Source: Carcharhinus amblyrhynchos
Lineage: Eukaryota
DNA length: 64,000 nucleotides
Assembly (NCBI GenBank): GCA_965287045.1
Contig: OZ336878.1
Location: forward strand, 10,230,001 to 10,294,000
Direction of reading: 5' to 3'
Shown here: positions 41-55,279 of the stretch, in pieces
How the letters are laid out: each line of letters starts with the position of its first letter
Position numbering within the stretch: the first letter of the stretch is position 1
Translations under genes and position numbers: made by a program
Notes under the pieces: generated by a model
What the model was told of the DNA's origin: nothing
Databases searched by the model: none
Seen by the model: the letters and a program-made list of their open reading frames with translations, nothing else

Positions 41-516
41 GAAAATAAAATACTGTGGATGCTGAACATTGAGTTCAACAACTTCAGAGGATGAACTCTC
101 TCCTGCACCTTCACCTCATTTCCATTTATTTTATTTTGTTCTGTTTCATCTTATTTATCCATTTTATCATCCTTCTTTCTCACCTTCACTTTCCATTCCA
201 GCTCTCTTCCCTTTCTCCCCACTCCCCCTTTCAGGGCAACTGCCACATTACTCAGGCAGTCCTTTCACAATCTGCACCTCTGTTCTGCCATTCAAGCATT
301 CTTATCAATTAATGGACATTTTTTTAGCACCTTTCTCAGCCTTCTGTATCTGATTTACATTCTCTTTGCCCCATTCCATCCTCATTCTATAAATCTCTGC
401 TGATTCTCTTTTTTGTCAGTTCTGACAAAGGGCCTTCTAGACGTGAAACATTGGCTTTATTCTCTCCTCACAGATGCTATCAGACTTGTTGAATTATCCA
501 ACATTTTCTGTTTTTG
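41..516 (+). mobile_element. Penelope-like element 3' fragment with inverted terminal piece and degenerate hammerhead motif
   Basis: ORF-end-like NIEFNNFRG* near 64-93, a pyrimidine-rich UTR, then CTGACAA(422-428)...GAAAC(445-449) and a 'cacagatgct..gacttgttga' tail shared with copies at 5561 and 55165(-). Confidence 0.6.
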
Positions 517-649
517 CTCTATCCTTTACGCCTTCCTTTTTCTCCATGCTCCCTCTTAGTGTCATCAGTGTACTGACAGTACCCAGCTCTACCTTACTAT
601 CAGCTCCTTTACCCGTCCACTGTCTCAAAACTGTCAGACCTTTTGTCCA

Positions 650-4343: not shown

Positions 4344-4434
4344 ATTGCAGCAAAAATTGGAGGGGATACAGGAACACCAATAAATACGTCTGACTATGGA
4401 TACGGTGGACAAAAAAGGCCTCTGGAAGATGGAG
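4344..4434 (+). CDS. FUBP1: FUBP1 coding exon 2 ([30 protein letters not shown])
   Basis: cag|ATT...GGAG|gtgagt, 91 nt; matches the FUBP1 N-terminal sequence. Confidence 0.95.
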
Positions 4435-5550
4435 GTGAGTCGTGGCAAATTATCTTATCCTCTTTAAGTTCATCAATAGGTTTAATCTGATATTGTATCA
4501 TGGGTTACTTTTTGGGGAGAATCATCGTTGGTAAATCATGATTTACCATATAAGCAATTTTAAAATTTGACTTGATATGTTTATGCAAATGATGGAATGA
4601 CATCAAATAACTAGCTCCTTTAAGAATAAAAAGTGCATCATGGATAGTTATGTCAAAATTCAGTCATTTTATGACGGAATGAGGACTTGCATTATTTTCA
4701 GAGTTATACTTGCTGCAGGAGGTGAAGGGGGTTACTGTGCAGTATTTGTTTTGGTGCACTCATTTTAGAGGTCTAAGGTTTCATAAAGATGGAGCAATTC
4801 AGATTATCCCATCAGTGACACTTGCACAAATAGCCTGATCCACACAGGTCAACATTTTAAATGATTTTGTTCTAGCTGTGTGGAAAAGGCATCTTCCACA
4901 TTGATGCCAGTTGCTTTGCATTAATTTTTTACTTTCAAATTTCTGAAATCTATGAACAATGCTGGACTTCTTCAGTTTTGCCATAATTAGTTAGGCTGCA
5001 CCATTCATTCTGCTGTGAGAGTATTCACTGCGATCTACTTCTTTGTAATGTCATAATAGCTTTTATTCACTCTTGATTCAAAAGATTGTTAGGGGTCAGT
5101 TTGAAGATTAAGGCAAAATAGAACCTAATTGTTCCATTTCACAATAGCTCTTCATTCTTTGCTCTGGAGTTTTTGGGGGGTCATTTTCAGGATCAGTGCA
5201 CAATCTTCTTGCCTTTTTTGCTTAGCAACATAACAGTTTTAACCAAAGGAGGAGTCTTGGTGACACTCAAGTCAGCCGTTGTAACTTGTTGTTGAATGTG
5301 TAGATATGACTGTTGGGCAAGTCTAAAGGTGAAAGTGAGCAAGCACTAGGAGGGGCACTTTCTGTTTTGAAGGCGGGAAATGATTTGCTTTGATGGACAT
5401 AGCAATAATTTCGGTGGTGATGGTGTTCTGATGCTGGCAGGTAATACATGGGTAAAAATATAGTCACCAGTTTGCACACTGGCCTAACATGGTGCTTAAT
5501 TTTTAATGATTTGTGCTATGTTCTAGGGGTTAGGGGATTTTCACAGTAAC

Positions 5551-5695
5551 TTGTCAAAGGTTTGACAAAGGGTCATCTGGCTCGAAACGTCAGCTCTTTT
5601 CCCTCCTTACGGATGCTGCCGGACTTGCTGAGATTTTCCAGCATTTTCTCTTTGGGTTTCAGATTCTAGCATCAGCAGTATTTTGCTTTTATTAT
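5551..5695 (+). mobile_element. Penelope-like terminal repeat fragment carrying a minimal hammerhead ribozyme motif
   Basis: TTGACAA-A-GGGTC atct GGCTC-GAAA-CGTC followed by the family tail; short inverted copy ttgtcaaa at 5551-5558. Confidence 0.65.
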
Positions 5696-6664: not shown

Positions 6665-6700
6665 ATCAGCCAGATACCAAAAAGGTCGCACAGAATGACC
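6665..6700 (+). CDS. FUBP1: FUBP1 exon 3 (DQPDTKKVAQND)
   Basis: gcag|ATC...GACC|gtaagt, 36 nt, phase 1-1. Confidence 0.92.
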
Positions 6701-17556: not shown

Positions 17557-18171
17557 GTAATGTGTTGTCATGAAAAAGTTACTCTTGGTTTCTTTTTAGT
17601 TTTGCATTACCTGCGCAAATAATTACATACCTTTAAAGACAGTGTAGTGCTTTCCTATTGAACAGAATTGCTGAACTGAAGTTAACGCTTTCTAATTAAA
17701 TTGCATAGTGTTAACAGCTCAAACTGGCCATTCAACCTAAAATGTGTGTGTTGGTGCTTATGGTGCATCTAATCCTATTCTCATTTTTTTTCCATTCTCT
17801 TCATTCTTGATACTCATCTAGATAACCCTTAAATGCACCTGTGCTGTTTGCCCCATGTGTAGCAAGTTCCATATTCTAACCATTAGTGGATGTGGTTCTG
17901 TTCTTTGGCATTGATGAGAGGATTTGAAAATGGGCCATGTGATGACTTGAGTAGAAAAAGCTTGCTGGCAAAAATATTCTGATGTGATACGAAAGGCCAG
18001 TTGTTTATTTGGTTAAAGTGTTGAATAATTATACAATATTCTCAGGTGGTTCACAAGCAAAACGTTGGCATTTTAAATGCAAATATTGATCACAGATTTC
18101 CCTGGGGTGCAGGGAGTGCTGTTCTGATCTACCTGAGAGACTTTTAATTCACCTAAGCACGGTTTGAGGTA

Positions 18172-18330
18172 AAATAAGCAAAATACTGCAGATTCTGGAA
18201 TCCGAAACAAGATAAGAGAATGCTGGAAATACTTAGCAGGTCCATCAGCATCTATTAGGATCAAAGAGTCAATTGATTGGAAATGTTAACTCTGCTAATA
18301 CATGCTGGCAGACCGGCTGAGGTTTACCAC
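18172..18330. mobile_element. Degenerate Penelope-derived foldback remnant
   Basis: Inverted family tail 'aaaatactgcagattctgg...gcagg..cagcatct' followed by forward 'gaaatgttaactctg...atgctggcagacc'. Confidence 0.5.
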
Positions 18331-54890: not shown

Positions 54891-55160
54891 GCCTTTGGAA
54901 ACTGTTCTGGTTGCCAACCTTTGAATCAGGCCCAGATCAATTGGAATCATCCTTCCCCCACTGATATTGTTATTTTTCCCCCAATTAATTATTCTTACTC
55001 CAGATTGGCCCTCCTCCGTTCCCATAGCTAACCTGAACCTTGTGATAAAATGATCACTGTCCCCTAAATGCTCCCCAACTGACATTTGATTCATAAGAAT
55101 TCTGGTGTTGAATACCTATCCACCAAGATGACCTGTCTCGGCACAGCAGATGAATGTGAT

Positions 55161-55279
55161 AAAAATAAAATACTGCAGATGCTGAAATCTGAAACAAAAA
55201 CAAATCTCAACAGGTCTGACAGCATCTGTGGAGAGAATAGAGCCAATGTTTCGCGTCTGGATGACCCTTCATCAGAGAT
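55161..55279 (-). mobile_element. Penelope-like terminal fragment with hammerhead motif
   Basis: Minus strand CTGATGA-A-GGGTC atcca GACGC-GAAA-CATT plus family tail. Confidence 0.7.

What the first reader, a model, noticed from the sequence alone, without database searches (positions are those of the whole stretch)
5551..5600. Minimal hammerhead ribozyme motif with a U3-A8 covariant core, sense to FUBP1 intron 2
Seen: UUGACAA (5562-5568), an extra A, a fully paired stem II GGGUC/GGCUC, GAAA (5584-5587), palindromic ACGU and a GUC triplet (5589-5591). Known: Penelope-like elements carry minimal type I hammerheads whose tiny palindromic stem III forms by dimerisation, and the C3-G8 tertiary pair tolerates U3-A8. 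The inverted piece at 5551-5558 also reads UUGACAA, which suggests the double change predates insertion. Inference: a Penelope family uses a variant catalytic core, and this copy is transcribed within FUBP1 pre-mRNA. Stem I is imperfect here.
Basis: partly seen in the sequence, partly recalled or inferred. Interest (0 to 1): 0.7.

Follow-up and report, generated by a model that had tools for sequence, protein, structure and literature searches.

The report
Decayed U3-A8 hammerhead in Penelope stub
This is a short, damaged leftover of a common jumping gene in a FUBP1 intron; its whole subfamily (about 1,600 intact-motif copies) carries an already known base-pair swap in a small self-cutting-RNA motif, and this particular copy is predicted to be inactive.

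Summary
The motif is real and correctly placed. It is the 3' end (5551-5692) of a Penelope-like retroelement (PLE), sense in FUBP1 intron 2. U3-A8 is fixed in a younger subfamily B: U3 in 92 and A8 in 95 of 100 core-blind copies; 22 of 22 ORF-selected copies; no CpG-decay signature. Older subfamily A has C3-G8. Genome-wide intact motifs: 1605 U3-A8, 599 C3-G8, 355 C3-A8, 84 U3-G8. This is one historical switch, not repeated covariation. U3-A8 is already published for Schistosoma PLE hammerheads and natural hammerheads; I found no vertebrate report. This copy is predicted inactive: a G-G mismatch in helix I, a one-base deletion in helix II, and its own inverted piece pairs with the core (p about 0.8). 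No role in FUBP1 is supported. The more interesting point: 1034 of 1293 copies stop sharing element sequence exactly at helix I (AGCT), 30 nt after a TATA box kept in both subfamilies, so the ribozyme likely sits at the very 5' end of the element's RNA. The scan noted U3-A8 hammerheads before (43 notes, at least 10 genomes).

The parts
5551..5558 (-). Short inverted piece of the element's own 5' end; predicted to pair with the catalytic core as a hairpin (5551-5557 with 5562-5568)
   Evidence: pair probabilities 0.54-0.83 in 160-nt context
5558..5561 (+). Helix I 5' strand, AGGT here against AGCT in the family (G5560 is a private change at position 2.2); the preferred 5' end of genomic copies and the likely transcription start of the source element
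   Evidence: (C in 51 of 59 copies with AG)
5562..5568 (+). Hammerhead core box U3-U4-G5-A6-C7-A8-A9 (U3-A8 variant, subfamily B source state)
5569..5583 (+). Extra A between 9 and 10.1, then helix II (5 bp, 4-nt loop here; one A deleted after 5580 relative to the family)
5584..5591 (+). G12-A13-A14, palindromic ACGT (A15.1-C15.2-G16.2-U16.1) and C17; predicted cleavage site after 5591
   Evidence: numbering after PMC4209133
5592..5595 (+). Helix I 3' strand AGCT
5596..5656 (+). Rest of the pLTR end, up to the first of two preferred 3' ends
   Evidence: 3'-end peak at 5653-5656 in 22 of 100 copies; loose ends
5657..5692 (+). Optional PLE 'tail' of about 35 nt, up to the second preferred 3' end
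   Evidence: ends at 5688-5693 in 36 of 100 copies; tail described in PMC11167929
4435..6664 (+). Host intron (FUBP1 intron 2) that holds the insertion

Best explanation
The locus is a 5'-truncated, partly inverted 3'-end copy of a Penelope-like retroelement whose subfamily carried a U3-A8 minimal type I hammerhead motif, and this copy is likely a neutral, predicted-inactive remnant in FUBP1 intron 2. Shown: the family, its RT and GIY-YIG-type ORF remnants, the fixed U3-A8 state in subfamily B against C3-G8 in subfamily A, the two 3' ends, the 5'-end pile-up at AGCT, and this copy's lesions. Inferred: in the source lineage G8 became A (likely by deamination of the C7-G8 CpG) and C3 became U, restoring the tertiary 3-8 pair, so the ribozyme was likely under selection while the element was active. 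Inferred: the element's promoter (TATA at -30) likely started RNA at helix I, and the short copies are likely reverse transcripts of uncleaved RNA from the tail start sites to that 5' end. In the active element the ribozyme would cut after GUC only as a dimer or with protein help, removing a 35-nt 5' piece.
For: Core-blind sample: 68 of 100 exact TTGACAA; U3 92, A8 95. ORF-selected copies: U3 22 of 22, A8 22 of 22; positions 7-8 never CG or TG, while two true CpGs nearby each decayed to CA 7 and TG 4 of 22. Genome-wide 1605/599/355/84 (1605 by subtraction). Eleven diagnostic sites outside the core split the copies into A and B with no intermediate haplotypes. B is one clade, 100/98, and less diverged (6.3% against 10.7%). 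The other A-to-B changes inside the ribozyme keep the fold: U17 to C17, G1.1 to A (U-G to U-A), two loop-2 letters. 557-aa open frame with an RVT_1 hit E 2e-4, below the curated cut-off; weak GIY-YIG hit E 0.24; CxxxxCxxC linker and DKG motif seen. Only 4 of 22 ORF-selected copies keep an intact ribozyme. In this copy helix I pair probability is 0 and the core is in a hairpin. 1034 non-T against 259 T before AGCT. TATA at -30/-31 in A and B.
Against: No cleavage or transcription data. The switch is a single event, so selection on the ribozyme rests on one compensated pair plus three compatible changes. PMC11167929 found hammerhead cleavage dispensable for in-vitro insertion and no RNA-seq reads ending at the cut site. 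The insertion is shared by orthologous contigs from three coded organisms with 0-2 differences in 5519-5594, which does not exclude a function, though flanks differ at similar rates (5 in 79 nt for organism B). An extra non-templated G (cap signature) was not replicated: 24 of 100 (my hand count). The same bases before AGCT also read as a 3' splice site. Pfam support for the ORF is below cut-off.
Confidence: 0.8

Rival explanations
1. U3 and A8 are two independent drift changes fixed in a source element whose ribozyme no longer mattered; the restored pair is coincidence.
For: Only one switch on the tree. G8-to-A is the commonest kind of mutation at a CpG, and C-to-T runs at 5-6%. Hammerhead cleavage was not needed for insertion in vitro (PMC11167929), and hammerheads may simply ride on PLEs (PMC8557442).
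Against: Of 14 A/B differences in about 100 columns, none hits U4, G5, A6, A9, G12-A14, A15.1 or U16.1, and all those in helices or the core keep the fold. The same U3-A8 swap arose in Schistosoma PLEs and other natural hammerheads.
Confidence: 0.15
2. This copy acts as a self-cleaving element in FUBP1 pre-mRNA and affects its processing.
For: Sense orientation in intron 2, all core letters intact; present at the orthologous site in three coded organisms.
Against: G-G mismatch in a 4-bp helix I, core held in a private hairpin, helix I probability 0. No helix III as a monomer. The other same-sense copy in the window (405-520) has lost the ACGT palindrome and has a broken core. Minimal hammerheads cleave poorly even as dimers (PMC4209133).
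Confidence: 0.04
3. U3-A8 is an after-insertion artefact of CpG decay and C-to-T changes in copies of a C3-G8 element.
For: This does happen in subfamily A: about 250 C3-A8 and about 300 CTGATGA copies (estimates), and 9 of 17 TTGACAA copies with the A-type loop are A-class.
Against: In B, positions 7-8 are CA 19, TA 2, AA 1 of 22, never CG or TG. 90 of the first 100 GANNA-core copies read GACAA, 2 GACGA, 0 GATGA (hand count). The window copy scores 11 of 11 B diagnostics.
Confidence: 0.01

Closest known systems
Minimal type I hammerheads in pLTRs of metazoan PLEs, including the U3-A8 variant of Schistosoma mansoni Cercyon elements (Cervera and De la Pena 2014, PMC4209133; read parts 1-2 of 4: abstract, results, discussion, part of methods)
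   Same: 4-bp helix I, extra base between 9 and 10.1, G10.1-C11.1, palindromic 15.2-16.2 with no helix III, mostly solo copies, U3-A8 core variant (about 1,300 hits there).
   Different: Vertebrate host; helix II 5 bp rather than 7-8; here U3-A8 is the majority form of intact motifs and its C3-G8 parent subfamily survives in the same genome.
Natural U3-A8 hammerheads (Perreault et al. 2011, PMC3088659; read 4 passages)
   Same: C3-G8 covaries to U3-A8; the passage says such ribozymes were already shown active in vitro.
   Different: Those passages concern other hammerhead examples; this one is a helix-III-less PLE form.
Poseidon PLE of Anolis carolinensis, PAc (Frangieh et al. 2024, PMC11167929; read parts 1-2 of 4 and passages)
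   Same: Hammerhead in the pLTR, two RT start sites 30-40 nt apart giving an optional tail, insertion from uncleaved RNA.
   Different: PAc has C3-G8 and is Penelope/Poseidon clade; this element has a Cys-rich RT-EN linker typical of Neptune/Nematis, and no ORF start was found after the tail here.
EN+ PLEs of the Neptune clade (as described in Craig et al. 2021, PMC8557442; read 12 passages)
   Same: RT then CX2-5CxxC linker then GIY-YIG; 5' truncation, inverted 5' copy, tail; start site in the pLTR known for Penelope and Chlamys.
   Different: Clade not tested by a tree; no full-length or direct pLTR-ORF-pLTR copy recovered; a start site exactly at helix I was not stated in the passages read.

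Membership tests
PLE minimal type I hammerhead | Core boxes N3-U-G-A-N-N8-A and GAAA with a 3-8 Watson-Crick pair | tested here: met
   family
PLE minimal type I hammerhead | Extra nucleotide between 9 and 10.1, G10.1-C11.1, helix II | tested here: met
   (helix II probability 0.98 in intact copy L054, 0.26 in this copy's context)
PLE minimal type I hammerhead | Palindromic 15.1-16.1 segment in place of helix III, NUH triplet | tested here: met
   ACGT and GTC
PLE minimal type I hammerhead | Helix I of 4-5 bp | tested here: not met
   Met in the family (AGCT/AGCT) but not in this copy: G5560-G5593 mismatch, probability 0
PLE minimal type I hammerhead | Self-cleavage as a dimer or with protein help | not testable with these tools
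   needs in-vitro assay
EN+ Penelope-like element | Single ORF with RT and C-terminal GIY-YIG upstream of the pLTR | tested here: met
   In longer copies, not in this stub: RVT_1 E 2e-4, GIY-YIG E 0.24, both below curated cut-offs; motifs visible
EN+ Penelope-like element | 5' truncation with inverted 5' segment and optional 30-40 nt tail | tested here: met
EN+ Penelope-like element | Direct partial tandem (pLTR-ORF-pLTR) | tested here: inconclusive
   None among the 9 stretches of 7-10 kb examined; no shared element sequence beyond the tail in 100 copies
Neptune clade | CX2-5CxxC linker between RT and EN | tested here: met
   C-x4-C-x2-C in L153, L257, L258 translations; definition from PMC8557442
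Neptune clade | RT phylogenetic placement | not tested
   no reference RTs on hand
Non-LTR retrozyme | Tandem non-coding units each with a hammerhead | tested here: not met
   single stub with a short inversion; definition from bioRxiv 10.64898/2026.07.22.740005

The most novel reading that the evidence does not exclude
In this vertebrate PLE the hammerhead is the first thing transcribed: a TATA-driven pLTR transcript starts at helix I, so dimer- or protein-dependent cleavage clips the capped 35-nt 5' end and acts as a dose-sensing off switch, while uncleaved RNA is copied into the thousands of 135-bp stubs. The switch was kept under selection through a CpG-driven C3-G8 to U3-A8 replacement in the subfamily that then spread most.
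Probability: 0.25. Interest if true: 0.6.

Novelty: new member of a known kind. Interest (0 to 1): 0.3.

Why it matters
The locus itself is ordinary. The family-level result matters modestly. The role of PLE hammerheads is open (PMC8557442; PMC11167929). A parent C3-G8 subfamily and a daughter U3-A8 subfamily in one genome are a natural compensatory pair that argues the ribozyme was maintained in active elements, and they give ready constructs for a four-way cleavage test. The 5'-end pile-up predicts an exact start site, which would tell what the cut does.

Tried and rejected
Rfam scan: no hammerhead family at E<=10. RNA evidence: no RNA holder listed; both layings were contigs, which cannot show ends or expression. 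Cap-derived extra G before AGCT: 11 of 20 solo copies in a post-hoc split (its p-value used too low a null because T and AA contexts were excluded), but only 24 G, 37 C, 39 A of 100 in the larger list (hand count), so rejected. An amplified intermediate source (C3-A8 or U3-G8): single-change copies sit on full A or full B backgrounds and are scattered in the tree; their numbers are of the order expected from later substitution (expected about 58 and 104; estimated about 100 and 40). The 17 TTGACAA copies with an A-type loop split 8 A-like and 9 B-like or so, with no mixed haplotype. Target-site duplication of 6 or more bases at this copy: none found. Dimer minimum-energy folds did not give the double-hammerhead shape for either sequence; the energy model lacks tertiary contacts, so this is uninformative. 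The first similarity search was not used for frequencies because the query held the core. PDB search with the ORF gave nothing. Rows dropped: L095 and L111 as duplicates; 8 gappy rows from the tree (111 of 119); 7 of 30 ORF-selected loci without an ungapped hit and L178 with a shifted core; 5 A and 2 B rows from the divergence means. Literature searches for U3-A8 in vertebrates or sharks returned only the papers cited; the library lacks most subscription journals, and I did not open any supplements, where PMC4209133's alignments may list fish or shark variants.

Full report
Observation. All listed letters are at the stated coordinates. The window lies in a 2.92-Gb genome at G000:C9:10230001-10294000. 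That the host is a shark is my recollection of the repeat's look and appears in earlier scan notes; I did not test it. The gene matches FUBP1 best. Exon 2 (4344-4434) and exon 3 (6665-6700) flank the motif on the same strand, and an exon-1-like stretch lies about 3.3 kb upstream of the window.

What it is. The stretch 5551-5692 is one of thousands of related copies (4334 candidates). Longer copies extend upstream into decayed coding sequence. One holds a 557-residue open frame with an RT hit (RVT_1, E 2e-4, below cut-off); another gives a weak GIY-YIG hit (E 0.24); a DKG motif and a C-x4-C-x2-C linker are visible. Copies end 3' at two places about 35 nt apart (22 and 36 of 100) and often carry an inverted 5' piece. 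This is the described anatomy of an endonuclease-bearing PLE, likely Neptune clade (PMC8557442, passages; PMC11167929).

Is U3-A8 the family state? Yes, on three samples. (a) A pattern that omits the core has 547 exact matches; in the first 100 by position, 68 read TTGACAA, with U3 in 92 and A8 in 95. (b) Copies chosen by similarity to a 1.6-kb, mostly coding query: U3 22 of 22, A8 22 of 22. (c) CpG control: in those 22, positions 7-8 are CA 19, TA 2, AA 1, never CG or TG, whereas two real CpGs in the ribozyme are each CG 9, CA 7, TG 4, other 2. So A8 is not decay after insertion.

Is it covariation? A general pattern gives 2643 matches (9 for the reversed control): C3-G8 599, C3-A8 355, U3-G8 84, U3-A8 1605 by subtraction; odds ratio 32. 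But 11 diagnostic sites outside the core divide the copies into subfamily A (CTGACGA, GTT triplet, U-G at 2.1-1.1; 10.7% from its majority) and subfamily B (TTGACAA, GTC triplet, U-A; 6.3%) (both samples favour well-preserved copies; ORF-selected B copies are 78-85% alike pairwise). B is one branch (100/98) drawn inside A on an 85-column, midpoint-rooted tree (the class labels use the same columns, and the bootstrap had not fully settled). The association is therefore one event. All 30 C3-G8 loci are A. Of 30 C3-A8 loci 21 are A; this fits CpG decay, since CTGACGA and CTGATGA are 45 and 50 of 100 listed by my count. No intermediate haplotype was amplified. Selection on the ribozyme in the source lineage is inferred: 14 A/B differences, none at invariant core positions, and those within the motif are the 3-8 swap, U17 to C, G1.1 to A and two loop letters.

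This copy. It scores 11 of 11 B diagnostics. It has a private G at 5560 (C in 51 of 59 comparable copies) that mismatches helix I, and lacks one A in helix II. In 160 nt of context the inverted piece pairs with the core at probability 0.54-0.83, helix II falls to 0.26 and helix I to 0; an intact copy started at AGCT gives 0.98 and 0.4-0.9. Decay is the norm: 4 of 22 ORF-selected copies are intact. Single contigs from runs of three coded organisms run from unique flank through 5594 without a gap, so the insertion and the deletion are shared; differences within 5519-5594 are 0, 2 and 1 by subtraction, with positions not shown, similar to the flank. One of these runs may be close to the window's own source. 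No evidence for or against expression was obtained.

How it likely worked. The element's own letter before AGCT is T. Genome-wide, 1034 copies have another letter there and 259 have T, and in the 100-copy sample 32 end 3-4 nt before U3 while 12 end in the next 29 nt. A TATA box starts 30 nt before that A in B and 30-31 nt in A, though the spacer has diverged (12 of 67 A copies shown, not all with a clear box). I infer a start site at helix I. The stubs span the cut site, so they come from uncleaved RNA, as found for the Anolis element. Cleavage in a dimer or with protein would remove a 35-nt capped piece. Against this: no cap-G signature; many 5' ends are inversion junctions that may be favoured by the AGCT palindrome itself; and the same bases read as a pyrimidine tract and TAG acceptor, where D. 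virilis Penelope has its intron end at helix I.

Comparison and verdict. U3-A8 was reported in natural hammerheads in 2011 (PMC3088659, passages) and in Schistosoma PLE minimal hammerheads in 2014 (PMC4209133). My searches found no vertebrate or shark report; supplements were not opened. I also read part 1 and passages of bioRxiv 10.64898/2026.07.22.740005, which covers one chondrichthyan for retrozymes. The scan's own notes list 43 U3-A8 findings in at least 10 genomes and 14 hammerhead notes in this genome. New member of a known kind; locus ordinary; family-level switch and start-site hypothesis modestly interesting. Interest 0.3.

Noticed in passing
window 405-520 (+): Subfamily-A-type copy with CTGACAA (CpG-decayed C3-A8), a short inverted piece and upstream TATA, sense in intron 1; its GAAACGT is degraded.
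   Followed up: partly
window 55159-55277 (-) and 18163-18260 (-): Another A-type copy with CTGATGA, and an older tail-only fragment.
   Followed up: partly
window 5596-5612 and 5645-5661: The family sequence holds two pyrimidine-tract + AG sites that look like 3' splice sites. In this sense-intronic copy the first AG is GG (GG in 7 of 93 copies); it could reflect selection against a cryptic acceptor or plain A-to-G drift.
   Followed up: partly
L153, L257, L258 around the hammerhead: One reading frame runs open through the ribozyme and tail in several copies, and both core changes (CTG to TTG, ACG to ACA) are synonymous in it; most other A/B changes are not, so coding constraint is not shown.
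   Followed up: no
L256 (G000:C5:31102500-31112000): A long B copy is interrupted just upstream of the TATA region by another retroelement fragment with a LINE-like RT tail; a 310-bp part of it recurs at 97% identity 6 kb away.
   Followed up: no
G000:C2:116282269-116288841: Two identical-looking back-to-back pairs of B hammerheads 6.3 kb apart, probably a local duplication.
   Followed up: no
L258 3225-3402 (reverse-complement coordinates): A 178-bp perfect-layout fold-back of two A-type hammerheads (CTGACGA / CTGATGA) 4 kb from a long B copy.
   Followed up: no
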